IMG/VR virus record: IMGVR_UViG_2874945390_000009
Strand: one strand, 5' to 3'
Length of the DNA: 50,212 bases
Origin: a virus
Taxonomy: Duplodnaviria > Heunggongvirae > Uroviricota > Caudoviricetes
This document shows positions 33,001 through 39,000 of this stretch, piece after piece. The first letter of the stretch is position 1; each line of letters opens with the position of its first letter. The position numbers were made by a program.

Positions 33001-36000
33001 CTGCTGACGGACAATAAGCGCCACATCCCGGCGATAACGCTCACCGGCTTTTGATACAAAATATGTGTTGTCACGACGTCGCCAGTAAGTATTCACCGTC
33101 GGCGGATAAGGTAAAATAAACTCATGGCGCATCAGCGCAGCACCTCCTGCACCAGTTTTTCAAACTTTCCGACTCTGGTTTCCAGCTCTGCCACACAGTC
33201 CACCAGCTCATCTACTGCTTTCTGTGCGCGATGCTTCGCCTGCATCAGTTCCCGAAGCGCGGGTACCATATCTTTACGGATAGCATCTTTTGTTATGCCC
33301 GTTTTTTCGAGTTGTTCAGCATGACGCAGCATTTCCTGCGCGTGTTTACGCAATTGTTCAGGGGTAAAAGTCATTGTCTGGTTGTTCAAAAGAAACGCTC
33401 CATCTTACTGCTGTCAGTTCGTTTATTACTGTATCTGCGCGGATTGCCGGGCTTCATGGGAGTGGAAAGCACCCGTGCACTTTCCTGGTCCACAGGCAGA
33501 AAATGTCCGTTATAAAAACGCCGGTAAATCGTTCCCAGAGAACCGTTACGTTGTTTCGTGATATTGATTTCTGCGATGCCCCTGGCCTGCGTATCCGGGT
33601 TGTACACTTCATCCCTGTAAAGCATCAGAATGATGTCTGCATCCGCCTCTATTTCTCCGGAATTTTTCAGGTCTGAGTTCATGGGACGTTTATTGGGTCT
33701 GGACTCCACACCGCGGGAGAGCTGGCTCAGCGCAATCAACGGAAAACCACCGGATTTTGCCAGGCCTTTAAGCCCCTTTGAGATTTCACCCACGGCAAGG
33801 TCATGACGCCCCGTGGTTCGGGTTTTTATCAGCCCGAGATAATCAACCACCACCAGCGCCGTTTCCGGATGTTTAATCAGATGGTGTTTCGTTGTTGCGC
33901 ATATCTCATCAATGGTCAGGTTCGCCTGGTCCACCATCCAGATATTGCGCCCGGTCATCCGCCCCCCCCTTGTGAGAAACGCGCCCAGTCTTCATCTTCA
34001 AAGTGAGCCACAGATTTCAGGCGTGATACTGGCATCCCTCCAGCCGCAGACACCATACGTTCACCAATCTGGATGTTCGCCATCTCCATGGTGAACAGAA
34101 GCACACCATGCCCCTGCTCAGTCACCTTGTCGATGATGTCCAGCGCAAGTTCGGTTTTCCCCATCGAAGGACGAGCCGCAATAAATACCAGGTCGCCGGG
34201 CTCCATGCCGCCTGTTTTTGCGTCCAGTTCATCAATACCGGTCATCAACGTCCTGGATTTCTCCAGTCCCTGATTCCGGCATTCAACACGCTCAACCACC
34301 TCCGGAAGCACATCATCAATATGTACCGACTGAATAACGCCCTTTTCCGTCGACAATGAGGCCATCATGTTCTGTGCATCCTTAAGAGCATCTTCAGCTG
34401 CTTCACAGGTATGCGCATCGCGTAATTTCTGTAATGCCTCGTTCAGTGTTTTTTCTGCATCGCGCAGTGCGGCATTGCGCCGCAACGCTGCAACATAGTG
34501 CTCCAGTGAAGACTTCACCCAGGTTTTACGCCCGGTATCAGTAATCACCGGGGCAAGTTCTGGCATCTCATTGCACAACAGCACAGGATCAATCACGCCG
34601 GACACACGGGCCTGTCTGCAGATGCCTGTGTAGATATCCCGGTACGGTCGTACAGAAAAAACGTCCGCCGGTAGTGTGGCCAGAATATCCATCACTTCAG
34701 GATCTGCTCCGCGCAGAAAGAACGCGCCGATGACAGCGCCTTCAAGGTCATCGTTACGCCATACTGGAGTTGTCATGCAGCCACACCTCTGATACGAGAA
34801 CGGTAACTGGGCCAGTTAAACGACAACCAGTTGCGTCCCCCGTCTGTGATCCTGTCGGCAATTCGGGGACTGATGAACGCCCACAACTCTTCCGGTGAGA
34901 GGTTACTGATCAGAATGGTGGGCAAGATACTTTCGTACCTGGCGTTGATAATTTCCTGCAAAATAGCCATTTCAGCCGCGCTGCCAAACTGAACGCCAAC
35001 TTCGTCGATGATCAGCAAATCCATTGACGCATAACGCTCAATAACTTCATCCGCTGTTTTTTCGCTGTCATTCCGCCAGCAATTTTTCACAGCACGGGTA
35101 AGGCGCATCACGTCGGTGATCTCCACACTGGCCAGATAGTTACGGATGATGTGTTTTGCCATAGCCACAGCCAGATGATTTTTTCCGGTACCACAACTGC
35201 CGGTCATAACAAGACTGGTACCGTTCTCCAGCATATCTGGCCAGTTCTCCGCATAGCGGCGACAGGCCGCAAGATTTCTGGCTGCGTCAGGATTAACCTC
35301 CAGATAATTATCAAACTCGCAGTCCCGAAAACGCAGGGCAATTCCGGCGTTATCAGTCAGCTCTTCCGCCTTGATGGACGACAGCTCCATGGTCAAATCG
35401 TTGGCCTCAGCGATTAAGCAGTCAGGGCAGCATGAAATTTTTTCTCTGTCCTCGCCATTACGATCGCTCCACACCAGTATATGCGTGTGATATTCGCCAT
35501 GTTTTTCGCAATATCCGCGACCTTCACGCATCAGGCAGGAACGATAAGGCCATGGCTTTTCGCCCTTCTGAGCAAATGCAATCTCTGCCCGTAACTCATC
35601 CATTCGCGCCTGTAGTCTTTTTTGTTGTTCACGCAGGTTAAACGTCATCATCGCTGTCACCTCAGAATGTCAGTTTGTCACTGGATTTACCGAATTTGTC
35701 AGACATGGCTCCCAGGCCAGCCAGGACATCGACCTGTCGCTGTCGCCCACCTCCGGGAGCGGCTGGCTGTTGCCAGAAGTCTTCGAAGTGACGATCGGGT
35801 CCAAAGAACGTCGCTGCCTGCTTCACGAACTGTGTGCCGTTATTTCCTGTGGCACGTATCCAGGCGGCATACCGCTTCACGCCATCAAGCATGGTCTCCG
35901 GTTTTATTCCCTCCCTGATACGGGCTTTCCAGGCTTTGAAGGCTGCGGATTTTGAGTTACCACCAGCACGTTTTGGATATTCCTGCCAGGCCTGTTCAAA

Positions 36001-39000
36001 TTCCGGTGAATATTCCTGTCGGGCAGAACGCGCTGGTGCAGACGCGTCAGCGGATGCGCCAATAGTGTTTTTACTCTCTGTAGTATTCTCTGAAGTAATC
36101 TCTGTTGTATTCTCTGTAAGATCGAAATTGGTTTTCCCTTCTCCGCGGTGAAGGCTTTCCCTCCTCCGCGAAATTGGGTTTTACAGTTTCCCGAAAACGG
36201 GTTTCCCCATTTCGGGAAAACTGATTGTTTTCATTGATAATTTCATTAAGGCGCTCACAATCTATACGGTAGAACATTTTGTGCTCAAGACGCTTGTTGG
36301 TTTCAACCAAAATGCCTCTGGACACAAGATGCTTACGCGCTACAGCCTGTTGTTCAAATGTAAGTCCGGTTTCGTGTTGTATCTCTTCACGCGTTTTATG
36401 TACGCCTTCCGCTGCATGTGCTTTATCCTGCCAGTAAAAAATCTGACCAAAGAAAATAACAGCGTGCGGACTTCCCATGTATTTAACGAGCCCAGGGTAA
36501 TAAGCAACCGGATGTCCAAAATCGAGCAGAAGATCAGACGGACGCATAGCCACCTCCCAGGCGTTTAAACATTTTTCCGGACTGAAACGCCACCAGCGGA
36601 TAACTCAGGGTATGAGTACGTCCCTGAACCTGGCAGACAACCTTCTGGCTTTCTGTATTGACCAGGCAAACCCGCAGAACGTGGCCGTTGCTGGTGGTGA
36701 ACCACTGCCCCACTCGGGGGCAACGGTTGTATCGGTGATACAGGGAATTAACGATGCGGCGAATCATGAACGCACCTCCTTGTCAGAACCATTCAGCCTG
36801 GAATCAACAAGTGCAGCACCAAAAACAGCATCACCTACACGGTCGTACAGTTTGCTGGCCAGCGGAGATTCAACAGCCTTAAGCATTGGGTAAAGCTGGC
36901 TTGTCCAGATTTGATGGATTTCACGCAAATGCAGGTATACGCCTCTGGCGTTTTGTGCGACAGATGACATGTCAGCCGCACCAGCTCCTGATAAGCTCCT
37001 CTCCATCTGGTTAAAGGCATTGATGTATGCCTCTTTGAACCGGGCGGCACGTTTACCAGTGAAGCCCATAGCAAGGAAGGCGAAGCCGTCGCGGGTGATT
37101 TGGTAGCAGGGAAGTTTGCGAGTACCGCCGTTGGGCTGGCGTACCAAAATTGATGTCTCCGCAAAATTGCGGGCACAAAACTCTGGAGAACAATCCAAAA
37201 TGCGGATCTTTTTCAGAACATCGTCATGACGTTTAGAGAAGAAGTTGGCAACAGCCAGGGATGAAGTAACAGCCTGACCATCAACGATGGCAATTTCAGG
37301 TTGAGTGAGGGTTGGGATCGTAGCCATGATGGCAGCCTCTTTGGTGATTTTTAATAACTCACCACCAAAGCTTCTCACGGCAATAGGTGGTGAGACGTAC
37401 AGGGGTGAGAAACCGGTCACCAAAGAACCCGGCCCAACCGAAGTTGGCCCTGCACGCCCCACCATAATTTGGGCGTAATGCTGCTCATGACACAAAAAAA
37501 CCGCAAGAGCGCGGTTGTGCGCTTTGGTGAATTCCGGGTTCTCACGCCCGGCACCCGCTTTATAAGGTGCGGAGACAGTGTAACGTCCCGAAATTGCAGA
37601 ATCAATATCAAAATGTTGTAGCTGTGGACAACGCGAAGCCTTGTTGTTATTGTTTACAACAAGAACCAGAGGAAGCTTTAAATGCCATCCAGACTGTATA
37701 AACAGTTCATCCGTAATCTCGGTGAATCTGAATACATACGAATCCGCATATGGGAAGTGGAGCCTGCTGTATTGGGTAGCCAGCACAACTACAAATACAG
37801 CATGGCTTATGTCGTTGATGGCATGTGTGTGATGCGTTACGACAACGAACGGGGTAAAGGCGATCACAAACACATTGGTAGTCAGGAAGTCAGCACCAGC
37901 TTTGTCACCATTGAACAACTGCTCGCTGATTTTCTGGCTGACGTTGAATCCATCCGCAGAGGTATCTGACATGAGAACCGTAACAATCCGAATCGAGTCA
38001 ATGGATAATTTCACGGCTGATGTGCTGTCTGCGTTCCAGGAAGCAGCTACCGGAGCAAAAGCAACCAGAGAAAACGTTATTTCATTTCCTGACTGGCAAA
38101 TGATGCATAAGGTACTGACACCAAAACGCATGGACATTCTGATGGCAATGACTGGTGCCGGAGAAATGTCCATCCGAAAAATTGCAGCCCTGGTTGGACG
38201 TGATGTAAAAAGCGTGCATACTGACGTGACCGCACTCATCAGCAACGGTTTACTGGAAAAAAGCGAGCGCGGAACGTCATTCCCGTATGACGACATCCAC
38301 TTTGATTTTACGCTGGGCAAGGCGGCGTAATTTTTCGTATATACCGTGCCGTCATTCCGGCGGCGCTTCACACTCCACAAAATCACGCCTGAACAACCAC
38401 AACGGGCTGAAACATTCATATGGATAACCATCACGCAGATAAATAACCCGCTGTGTTTCAGGCTCCCAGCGTATAACGTGGACGCGGCGCCCTCTGCCAT
38501 CACGGAACCAGCGATTGAGGACTTGCATAAATTACCCGTAAACATCGTCACACCTGCCAGCCAGTAGCCTGAAACAGGCCCATTCTCGGGTGATACCAGC
38601 GGGTACCACGCTGAACGGCACCACACATCATGTGATGAAACGCCTTCAGAAACGGTTCCACAGCAACAATTTCACGACGTGCCAGTAATCCATCTGGCGT
38701 CAAAAATTCATGAGTGTCTGTCGGGATGTTGTATGCATTTACAAGCGTGCGACATTTCGCATCTGACATACCGGTTTTTGCTTTCAGCTGGCGATATCCG
38801 GCATAGCCCTCACGAATGGTACCCTTTTTGATTTGCTCAACTGTTTCGGCAACATGGCTGACTTTTTCTTCCACCTGAGTGATCCGTTTCTGCTGGCGAA
38901 CGGCTTCAAGAGCCATCGCGGCAACCATTTCGATTTCGCTCATTGGCTTACGGATCTGTTCTTCCAGTTCGCGCCAGCGATCTACCAGGCGAGCAGTGAA

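What the first reader, a model, noticed from the sequence alone, without database searches (positions are those of the whole stretch)
35893..36240. Candidate origin: four 12-bp iterons inside an O-like gene that changes frame within the array
Four repeats of TAYTCTCTGWWG at 12-bp spacing lie in the O-like gene, followed by direct and inverted repeats, as with lambda ori inside O. The O reading frame changes inside the array, consistent with an indel in the repeats or a pseudogene. Repeat arrays of this kind are prone to expansion and contraction.
Basis: partly seen in the sequence, partly recalled or inferred. Interest (0 to 1): 0.45.

Follow-up and report, generated by a model that had tools for sequence, protein, structure and literature searches.

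The report
Deleted iteron breaks prophage initiator gene
A prophage replication-initiator gene that carries its own origin has lost one 23-base repeat, which shifts its reading frame; the four 12-base repeats beside it are not the initiator-specific sites but a DNA word shared by phage origins in many bacterial phyla.

Summary
The four 12-bp repeats (36070-36119) are real, but the frame change is not in them. Intact homologues encode one 302-aa protein that reads the same four units in one frame (TENTTEITSENTTES). The window lacks 23 bp, which is exactly one of three tandem 23-bp units (CGCGGAnnnGGGAAAnCC). The junction lies at 36142-36149, between 7-bp direct repeats and about 25 bp upstream of the array in gene sense. 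The lesion is genuine: the exact truncated 158-aa product occurs on 11-16 independent contigs in at least 4 backgrounds. The downstream helicase is also frameshifted, so this ipaH-type prophage has a dead replication module.

The region has the anatomy of a lambda-type origin inside the initiator gene. A winged-helix N-domain is followed by five (here four) GGGAAA repeats at about 23-bp period, then the 12-mer array, then a C-domain. Across about 300 loci the 22-23-bp repeats change with the N-domain type, so they are the likely iterons. The 12-mer ACAGAGAWTACW stays the same across many N-types, at least 26 C-types and several phyla. It sits where lambda's High-AT unwinding region lies. I found no description of it. 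Origin function is inferred, not shown.

The parts
36071..36547 (-). N-terminal ORF of the disrupted O-like initiator (158 aa). It comprises the winged-helix domain, the iteron-encoded stretch, and an out-of-frame tail YREYNRDYFREYYRE that ends at a TAA inside the last 12-mer unit.
   Evidence: Residues 1-136 are identical to the intact 302-aa homologue. Fold model.
35662..36177 (-). C-terminal reading frame of the same gene. It is open throughout, but its first start codon is the ATG at 35892 (76-aa ORF). It is identical to the C-part of intact homologues and of phiP27 L17.
36070..36119 (-). Four tandem 12-mers. In gene sense they read ACAGAGAATACA ACAGAGATTACT TCAGAGAATACT ACAGAGAGTAAA. This is the family-wide shared array and the least stable duplex stretch of the gene. 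It is the proposed unwinding / helicase-entry element.
36125..36170 (-). The two remaining 23-bp iteron-like units: A at 36170->36148 and C at 36147->36125. Intact genes carry a third unit, B, between them.
36142..36149 (.). Junction of the 23-bp deletion. Its exact position is ambiguous over the 7-bp direct repeat CCGCGGA (TCCGCGG on the + strand, 36142-36148).
36187..36226 (-). The promoter-proximal GGGAAA cores: gene-sense starts at 36207 and 36192, plus an inverted copy at 36219. Together they form an imperfect inverted repeat.
34773..35651 (-). DnaC/IstB-like ATPase (helicase-loader type). It appears intact.
33386..34776 (-). DnaB-like replicative helicase, split into 273 + 190 aa by loss of one base. 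GGGGTGGGG has become G8, seen as a C8 run on the + strand at 33962-33969.
36534..36767 (-). Conserved 77-aa ORF that overlaps the start of the initiator gene. Its function is unknown and it is present in all relatives examined.

Best explanation
The segment is the middle of a lambdoid-prophage replication-initiator gene on the minus strand. In intact relatives the gene encodes 302 aa. As in lambda O, it most likely carries the phage origin inside its own coding sequence.

Reading in gene sense, the parts are:
1. A winged-helix N-terminal DNA-binding domain.
2. Five GGGAAA-core repeats at roughly 23-bp period, proposed to be the initiator-specific iterons.
3. Four tandem 12-mers, ACAGAGAWTACW. 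These form the least stable duplex of the gene and are proposed to be where the DNA is opened and the helicase enters.
4. A C-terminal domain, proposed to recruit the neighbouring DnaC-like loader and DnaB-like helicase.

In this window one whole 23-bp iteron unit has been deleted between 7-bp direct repeats (CCGCGGA), which is the signature of slipped-strand or short-homology deletion. Because 23 is not a multiple of 3, the gene shifts frame and terminates inside the 12-mer array. This produces the appearance of a frame change within the array. The initiator is therefore truncated to its DNA-binding part, the origin has lost a site, and the helicase gene carries a later 1-bp frameshift. This is a replication-dead module in an ipaH-carrying prophage.

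Shown: the deletion, its position, its reality, the architecture, and the co-variation of repeats with N-domain type. Inferred: iteron binding, unwinding at the 12-mers, and origin activity.
For: Deletion:
- The alignment with intact homologues shows a single 23-bp gap, and the array is identical.
- The intact protein is continuous.
- All 18 window-type loci that carry these iterons have cores at -113, -98, -67, -44 and -21 from the array. The window lacks one.

Reality of the lesion:
- The exact 158-aa product is found on 11-16 contigs from NCBI, SRA and ENA.
- CP026836.1 is 100% identical to the window over 6477 nt.

Initiator identity:
- phrog_270 at 5e-65, and the O-like phrog_9773 at 1e-36.
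- Winged-helix model with pLDDT 79. Foldseek hits are all winged-helix domains and include plasmid Rep-DNA complexes.

Iterons are the 23-bp repeats:
- Each N-domain type has its own repeats at 22-23-bp period directly upstream of the array.
- L059 keeps the GGGAAA repeats with the window-type N-domain although it has a different C-domain. L035 and phiP27 have the same C-domain as the window but different repeats.

The array corresponds to lambda's High-AT region:
- It has the same position after the last iteron.
- It is the least stable 36-bp stretch in the gene, as the High-AT region is in lambda O. The two align, and only 3 of 500 shuffles reach the observed score.

Precedent: lambda ori- mutants r93 and r98 are 24-bp deletions that remove an iteron, and r95, r96 and r99 are 12-15-bp deletions in the High-AT region (PMC6022878).
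Against: - No experiment exists for this initiator family. Binding, unwinding and origin activity are inferred by analogy.
- Pfam and NCBIfam do not recognise the protein. My N-domain profile does not reach lambda O, so homology to lambda O rests only on weak shared PHROG hits.
- In AT-rich hosts the 12-mer array is not especially unstable, yet it is still conserved. Simple 'easily melted DNA' is therefore an incomplete account. The 12-mers could themselves be protein-binding sites.
- A more AT-rich stretch also lies just upstream of the iterons.
Confidence: 0.7

Rival explanations
1. One reading: the four 12-mers are the initiator's iterons, and an indel inside them shifted the frame.
For: The 12-mers are tandem repeats inside an O-like gene. 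One relative, P0038, does shift frame inside its array.
Against: The array is identical and has the same copy number in intact genes, and the only indel is 23 bp in other repeats. The same 12-mer follows many different N-domain types, so it cannot carry initiator specificity. A 12-bp spacing is unlike known iterons.
Confidence: 0.05
2. The 12-mers are a second, family-wide class of binding sites. They would be recognised sequence-specifically, as duplex or as single strand after melting, by a conserved surface of the N-domain superfamily or by a conserved host replication protein. They would not be only a passive unwinding element.
For: Conservation is at the DNA level: 213 of 220 codon-degenerate matches use the same codons, and third codon positions are as conserved as the first and second. 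The word is kept in hosts where it is not unusually AT-rich. It travels with one N-domain superfamily, found in 277 of 280 array-bearing ORFs. Lambda, 933W and P27 O proteins bind AT-rich single-stranded origin DNA (PMC7466680).
Against: There is no binding data. The C-domains and partner proteins differ widely. Some family members, such as phiP27 L17, lack the array.
Confidence: 0.3
3. The 12-mer array is conserved only as a flexible T/E-rich peptide linker and as a homologous-recombination joint for swapping N- and C-modules. On this view it has no origin role.
For: N x C mosaicism has its breakpoints at the array: L059, L035 and phiP27, with 25 N x C combinations observed. The array always lies in the same frame, in the inter-domain position.
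Against: Synonymous positions are conserved, which a peptide linker does not require. Identity across phyla whose phages cannot meet is not explained by recombination.
Confidence: 0.1
4. The 23-bp deletion allele is not dead. Either a +1 ribosomal frameshift at the tandem rare arginine codons created at the junction (CGG-AGA-AGG) restores a full-length protein, or the 158-aa DNA-binding fragment is kept as an origin-blocking or regulatory protein.
For: The allele occurs in at least 4 diverged backgrounds. In 7 of 8 loci the loader and helicase are intact, and the C-frame stays open for all 160 codons. The shift needed is +1, and tandem AGA/AGG codons are known frameshift-prone sites in E. coli (established knowledge).
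Against: The allele is rare: 11 contigs against 118 for the identical intact protein and at least 1000 for a close variant. It is absent from 5426 complete E. coli genomes. There is no good re-pairing for a +1 slip at the junction (my reading of the sequence). Other relatives carry different frameshifts in the same region, as expected for random decay at a repeat hotspot.
Confidence: 0.08
5. The frame change is a sequencing or assembly artefact.
For: Repeats are error-prone for assemblers. Many database proteins of this family are 'partial' and end at the repeats.
Against: The same junction appears in independent NCBI, SRA-derived and metagenome assemblies. The three 23-bp units differ internally, so they would not collapse.
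Confidence: 0.02

Closest known systems
ori-lambda inside gene O of phage lambda (four 18-bp iterons plus a 39-bp High-AT region)
   Same: The origin lies inside the initiator gene, at the junction of the DNA-binding N-domain and the partner-binding C-domain. The repeats have 20-24-bp spacing. They are followed by the least stable stretch of the gene. Small deletions between repeats destroy function: r93 and r98 remove one iteron.
   Different: The repeat sequence differs (GGGAAA cores, not TCCCTC..GAGGGA palindromes). There are five repeats, not four, and the unit length of 23 bp is not divisible by 3. The N-domain is not a Pfam Phage_rep_O member. The partners are a DnaC-like loader plus a phage DnaB-like helicase, not lambda P. 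The AT-rich part is a precise 12-mer tandem array, not an A-tract.
Origins of Stx phages 933W and P27 as studied by Kozlowska et al. 2020 (six lambda-type iterons)
   Same: Stx-type lambdoid context. Iteron number differs between phages and changes the length of the O protein. The distal iterons are needed in vivo (PMC7466680).
   Different: Those O proteins are close lambda O relatives. The window's initiator belongs to another family. The phiP27 record read here (NC_003356, L17) shares only the C-domain with the window.
Iteron plasmids with winged-helix Rep initiators (pSK41/pTZ2162 RepA, RepE, pi) and their 13-mer unwinding elements
   Same: Winged-helix initiator fold (Foldseek hits 5kbj, 4pql, 4pt7). 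Iterons of about 22 bp lie next to an unwinding region built of short tandem repeats. Rep binding to one strand of that region is established knowledge.
   Different: Plasmid origins lie outside the rep gene. The 12-mer word here differs from plasmid or oriC 13-mers and is conserved across phyla.
Bacillus phage SPP1 oriL inside gene 38 (G38P, 'replisome organizer')
   Same: The origin is embedded in the initiator's own gene and has an adjacent AT-rich segment (established knowledge). Bacillus phages whose initiators are annotated 'replisome organizer and ori-binding protein' carry the 12-mer array.
   Different: I did not examine SPP1 itself, so whether it has the 12-mer word is not tested.

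Membership tests
Lambda-type origin embedded in the initiator gene | Lies within the initiator coding sequence, between the N- and C-domain coding parts | tested here: met
   The repeats occupy gene positions 328-501 of 909 in the intact homologue. The N-domain model ends at about residue 114.
Lambda-type origin embedded in the initiator gene | Four or more repeated sites at about two-helical-turn spacing whose sequence tracks the initiator's DNA-binding domain | tested here: met
   Five GGGAAA cores, four of them in the window. Type-specific 22-23-bp periodic repeats occur in every N-type.
Lambda-type origin embedded in the initiator gene | An adjacent low-stability segment on the C-terminal side of the repeats | tested here: met
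   The least stable 36-bp windows fall at gene positions 451-505, which is the 12-mer array. Lambda gives the same result for its High-AT region.
Lambda-type origin embedded in the initiator gene | The initiator binds the repeats, and the segment supports replication when the initiator is supplied | not testable with these tools
   This needs EMSA or footprinting and a plasmid replication assay.
Lambda O protein family (Pfam Phage_rep_O, PF04492) | Significant match to the family model | tested here: not met
   No Pfam hit for either fragment or for the intact homologue. My N-domain profile does not hit lambda O. Only weak shared PHROG hits link them: phrog_678 and phrog_345.
Winged-helix replication initiators | Winged-helix fold in the DNA-binding domain | tested here: met
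   The model has H-beta-H-H-beta-beta topology, core pLDDT about 90. All top PDB matches are winged-helix domains, but E-values are weak (>=1.8e-3) and TM is 0.45-0.58.
Iterons (as a label for the four 12-mers) | The repeat sequence co-varies with initiator specificity | tested here: not met
   The same ACAGAGAWTACW word is found with 10 N-types at 50% identity, and across phyla.
DNA unwinding element (as a label for the four 12-mers) | Lowest duplex stability next to the initiator sites | tested here: met
   Met in this gene, and in 25 of 27 ORFs with GC >= 0.46. Not met in AT-rich hosts, 0 of 9.
DNA unwinding element (as a label for the four 12-mers) | Strand opening on initiator binding | not testable with these tools
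   This needs KMnO4 or P1 nuclease probing.
Pseudogene | Frame disruption relative to intact, widespread orthologues | tested here: met
   The 23-bp deletion against a 302-aa protein seen on more than 1000 contigs. The helicase has a second lesion.
Programmed ribosomal frameshift | Slippery site in the correct phase and conservation of the two-frame arrangement | tested here: not met
   The needed shift is +1. GGGAAAA is in the wrong phase. The ancestral state is a single frame.

The most novel reading that the evidence does not exclude
The tandem 12-mer ACAGAGAWTACW is a previously undescribed, sequence-specific core element of phage and prophage replication origins. It is embedded in the inter-domain linker of one very large family of winged-helix initiators (6,952 representatives at 50% identity). 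It always follows type-specific 22-23-bp iterons. It is conserved as DNA from Enterobacteria, Acinetobacter and Vibrio to Bacillus, Staphylococcus, Clostridia and cyanobacteria. Its conservation in hosts where it is not unusually AT-rich implies recognition by a conserved partner, either the initiator's N-domain on melted DNA or the helicase-loading machinery. Passive melting alone would not explain this.
Probability: 0.45. Interest if true: 0.8.

Novelty: new variant of a known kind. Interest (0 to 1): 0.55.

Why it matters
For this window, the result is ordinary. It shows a decayed prophage replication module, in which the origin-bearing initiator gene was inactivated by loss of one iteron. 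That is the same class of lesion as the classical lambda ori- deletions.

The wider result matters more. It separates two repeat classes that a sequence reader easily confuses: variable iterons that carry initiator specificity, and an invariant 12-mer array.

If the 12-mer is a recognised element, three things follow:
- It offers a simple sequence marker for locating origins in thousands of uncharacterised phages and prophages.
- It gives a defined substrate for asking how winged-helix phage initiators open DNA and hand it to very different helicase-loading partners.
- It explains why short-read assemblies often break at this point in prophage-rich genomes.

Tried and rejected
- **Programmed frameshift:** rejected. 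Intact homologues use one frame, the needed shift is +1, and no phased slippery site exists.
- **Assembly artefact:** rejected. The same junction occurs in independent assemblies.
- **Same lesions in E. coli:** searched for the deletion junction and the helicase G8 lesion in 5426 complete E. coli genomes and found none.
- **Junction in species-representative genomes:** scanned and found 0 hits.
- **Single origin or recurrence of the deletion:** unresolved. The window group has an intact twin that differs at 1 of 2000 flanking bases. The other three backgrounds have no close intact twin in my sample. The sequence around the deletion is near-invariant in all alleles, so recombination cannot be excluded.
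- **Pfam and NCBIfam:** nothing for the initiator.
- **Rfam:** nothing in the region.
- **Promoter and terminator scan:** no more sites than in shuffles.
- **Literature word searches** for TENTTE, TTEITTE, TTENTTE and the DNA words returned only irrelevant papers. Two further topical searches found no description of the array.
- **The search for homologous proteins** with the N-domain returned mostly partial proteins.
- **DnaA box, LexA box and Nextera mosaic-end resemblance:** considered by eye and dismissed.
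Full report
**1. The observation**

The genes in this part of the window are on the minus strand. The four 12-bp units exist at 36072-36119. TAYTCTCTGWWG matches two of them exactly and two with one mismatch, and these are the only matches in the 50-kb window. Tandem Repeats Finder reports period 12, 3.7 copies and score 67.

Next to them are direct repeats that contain GGGAAA, and an imperfect inverted repeat at 36187-36219.

The O-like gene is split into two frames:
- An N-part runs from the ATG at 36547 to a TAA at 36071-36073.
- A C-part frame is open from 36177 to 35662. Its first start codon is at 35892.

Both frames are open across 36071-36177, so the position of the switch cannot be read from the ORFs alone.

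**2. Where the frame really changes**

Homologues in E. coli chromosomes and Stx phages carry one continuous 909-bp gene of 302 aa.

Alignment shows a single length difference. The window lacks CCGCGGACACGGGAAACCCCTCG, which is 23 bp. Everything else in the repeat region is identical, including the four 12-mers. In the intact protein those 12-mers are read as TENTTEITSENTTES in one frame.

The missing piece is exactly the middle one of three tandem 23-bp units (CGCGGAnnnGGGAAAnCC). It is bounded by the 7-bp direct repeat CCGCGGA. In window coordinates the junction lies within 36142-36149, about 25 bp upstream of the array in gene sense.

All 18 window-type loci that carry these iterons have GGGAAA cores at -113, -98, -67, -44 and -21 from the array. 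The window lacks one of them.

The unit length is 23, so loss of one unit must shift the frame. The shifted N-frame then runs through the array as YREYNRDYFREYYRE and stops in its last unit. That is why the frame seems to change within the array.

**3. The lesion is real, and not unique to one genome**

The exact 158-aa truncated product is on record on 11-16 contigs: NCBI assemblies, SRA-derived assemblies and a metagenome.

CP026836.1 (GCA_002950135.1) is 100% identical to the window over 6477 nt, including the helicase lesion. Two SRA-derived contigs carry the same prophage with the O deletion but an intact helicase. In this lineage, therefore, the O deletion came first.

The deletion allele sits on at least four backgrounds that differ by 5-9%.
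- The window group has an intact twin (L001, L077, L193) that differs at 1 of 2000 flanking bases.
- For the other backgrounds I found no twin.
- I cannot say whether the deletion recurs at a slippage hotspot or has been moved by recombination.

The allele is rare. It is on 11 contigs, against 118 for the identical intact protein and at least 1000 for a close variant. It is absent from 5426 complete E. coli genomes.

Other relatives carry different frameshifts in the same repeat region. One of them (P0038) shifts inside the 12-mer array.

**4. Context**

The window is an ipaH-type lambdoid prophage with IS600, as found in Shigella/EIEC lineages.

Downstream of the initiator lie a DnaC/IstB-like ATPase and a DnaB-like helicase. 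In the window the helicase has lost one base (GGGGTGGGG to G8) and is split into 273 + 190 aa. No complete E. coli genome shares that lesion.

In the closest E. coli relative the same helicase gene is interrupted by IS600. The replication module is therefore being lost repeatedly in this prophage lineage.

**5. What the gene is**

- Pfam and NCBIfam give nothing.
- PHROGs place the intact protein in phrog_270, 'replication initiation protein' (5e-65). Its N-part also matches the O-like phrog_9773 (1e-36).
- Lambda O and the window-type protein share weak hits to phrog_678 and phrog_345.
- An AlphaFold model of residues 1-118 (pLDDT 79, core about 90) has winged-helix topology.
- The best PDB matches are all winged-helix domains and include plasmid Rep-DNA complexes, but the scores are weak.

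**6. Which repeats are the iterons**

I scanned public collections for the core of the 12-mer array. The scans were an exact word in viral contigs, a codon-degenerate version in viral contigs, and a two-unit word in one genome per species. Together they gave about 300 loci.

In almost all of them:
- The word is in frame as T-E-[N/I]-T repeats.
- It lies about 140-260 aa into an ORF, with 110-200 aa following.
- The 140 nt upstream carry their own periodic repeats with a best self-match shift of 21-24 bp, mostly 23.

These upstream repeats differ with the N-domain type:
- Window type: GGGAAAC
- mEp460 type: GGTCAAAATG
- Other types: CGGCAAAC, AGAATGGA, ATGAGGAAAA, ACAAATTG, ACGTTGAA

They follow the N-domain, not the C-domain:
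- L059 combines the window-type N-domain and GGGAAA repeats with a lambda-O-like C-domain.
- L035 and phiP27 have the window's C-domain but other N-domains and other repeats.

This is the behaviour expected of initiator-specific iterons. Their period matches lambda's 20-24 bp.

**7. What the 12-mer array is**

The array is shared by 10 N-types and 26 C-types in viral contigs. It also occurs in taxa from Enterobacteria, Acinetobacter, Vibrio and Xenorhabdus to Bacillus, Lysinibacillus, Staphylococcus phages, Clostridia, Lachnospiraceae and cyanobacteria. My estimate of chance matches in that genome scan is about 0.3, against at least 120 found.

The C-domains of the carriers include DnaB_2/DnaD-like, DUF6017, Phg_2220_C and DnaA_N.

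Conservation is at the DNA level:
- 213 of 220 matches to the codon-degenerate pattern use ACA-GAG-A(A/T)T-AC(A/T).
- In the adjacent unit that was not part of the search pattern, third codon positions are as conserved (0.61-0.80) as first and second positions.

The array travels with one N-domain superfamily:
- An iterative profile seeded on the window's N-domain reaches 277 of 280 array-bearing ORFs.
- A profile search of 1.84 billion representatives finds 6,952 family members.
- Of the best 133 full-length ones, 52 carry the peptide motif by a strict expression (0 in shuffles). Most of the rest show visible variants at the same place.
- The word is therefore common and ancestral-looking, but not invariant. 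phiP27 L17 belongs to the superfamily without it.

Position and physical properties:
- The array sits exactly where lambda has its High-AT region, directly after the last iteron and encoding the inter-domain linker.
- It is the least stable duplex stretch of the intact gene, as the High-AT region is in lambda O. The two sequences align better than 497 of 500 shuffles.
- In AT-rich hosts the array is not unusually unstable (0 of 9 ORFs with GC below 0.34 have it in the least stable 5%, against 25 of 27 with GC at or above 0.46). It is kept all the same.
- Easy melting alone therefore does not explain its conservation. A sequence-specific partner is likely, but I cannot name it.

Copy number ranges from 2 to 6, always in frame. 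Window-type genes have four units in 16 loci and five in L041.

**8. Mechanism proposed**

By analogy with lambda (PMC6022878, PMC7466680):
1. The N-domain binds the 23-bp repeats.
2. The complex stresses and opens the adjacent 12-mer array.
3. The C-domain brings the DnaC-like loader and the DnaB-like helicase to the opened DNA.

In the window, the deletion removes one site, changes the spacing, and uncouples the DNA-binding part from the C-domain. The later helicase frameshift completes the loss.

Lambda ori- mutants selected as survivors of prophage induction are small deletions of exactly this kind: r93 and r98 are 24 bp and remove one iteron. Selection against replication of a non-excising prophage is therefore a plausible driver. 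I have no direct evidence for it.

**9. Comparison and novelty**

The anatomy is that of a lambda-type origin inside the initiator gene. The protein is not a member of the lambda O Pfam family.

The window's own feature is a new member of a known kind, and it is a pseudogene.

The shared 12-mer array is, as far as I could find, not described. Motif-word and topical searches of the open-access library returned nothing relevant. That is weak evidence, because subscription literature is not covered.

**10. Caveats**

- Collection scans stop at 120 rows, so counts are lower bounds.
- Most loci were selected by the motif itself.
- Sequences are not phylogenetically independent.
- Iterative profiles can drift.
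- No step of the mechanism has been tested experimentally for this family.

Noticed in passing
window 33962-33969 (helicase gene 33386-34776, minus strand): The DnaB-like helicase is split into 273 + 190 aa by loss of a single T (GGGGTGGGG to G8). No complete E. coli genome shares this lesion. Two SRA assemblies of the same prophage have the O deletion but an intact helicase, so the helicase lesion is the later event.
   Followed up: yes
L193 (E. coli FDAARGOS_944) 9387-12045: In the closest E. coli relative of this prophage, the same helicase gene is interrupted by IS600 and several other genes are pseudogenes. This is independent inactivation of the replication module.
   Followed up: partly
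window 37383-37570, minus strand: Rfam finds a C4 antisense RNA (37383-37469) and isrK (37494-37570) just upstream of the Rha/antirepressor-type gene. This is a P1/P7-style c4-ant immunity arrangement inside a lambdoid prophage.
   Followed up: no
window 31371-31796, minus strand: STnc100 sRNA (31371-31560) and a tRNA with a CAT anticodon (31721-31796). ARAGORN calls it tRNA-Met, while the relative's annotation calls it tRNA-Ile. Both lie upstream of the late region.
   Followed up: no
protein cluster of the truncated product: Many database entries of this initiator are 'partial' proteins of 116-139 aa that end at the repeat region. Short-read assemblies seem to break at the iteron / 12-mer segment, probably because several prophages in one genome share it.
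   Followed up: partly
P0035, P0040, P0038: Three related initiators in public data read the 12-mer array out of frame (ILQRI..., LLQRIQTLAHRL...). These are independent frameshifts in or beside the repeats, and in P0038 the shift is inside the array.
   Followed up: partly
window 35662-35892 (76-aa ORF): PHROG phrog_23060 ('unknown function', profile length 76) matches exactly the C-terminal 76 aa of this initiator (5e-49). That family may consist of fragments of split or mis-called initiator genes.
   Followed up: no
L232 (Iainarchaeum MAG), L213 (Nostocales), L291: A few motif hits are in short ORFs or in long runs (11 units in the archaeal MAG) without the initiator architecture. They may be unrelated T/E-rich repeat proteins or fragments.
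   Followed up: no
L244 (Nitrospinota MAG): An array-bearing initiator whose C-terminal part matches the DnaA N-terminal domain (PF11638, 3e-12), a domain known to contact the replicative helicase. This fits the idea that the C-domains are interchangeable helicase-recruiting modules.
   Followed up: no
window 1-25000: The left half of the window matches prophage structural genes that, in relatives, are next to an ipaH-type T3SS effector gene. I did not locate ipaH in the window itself.
   Followed up: no
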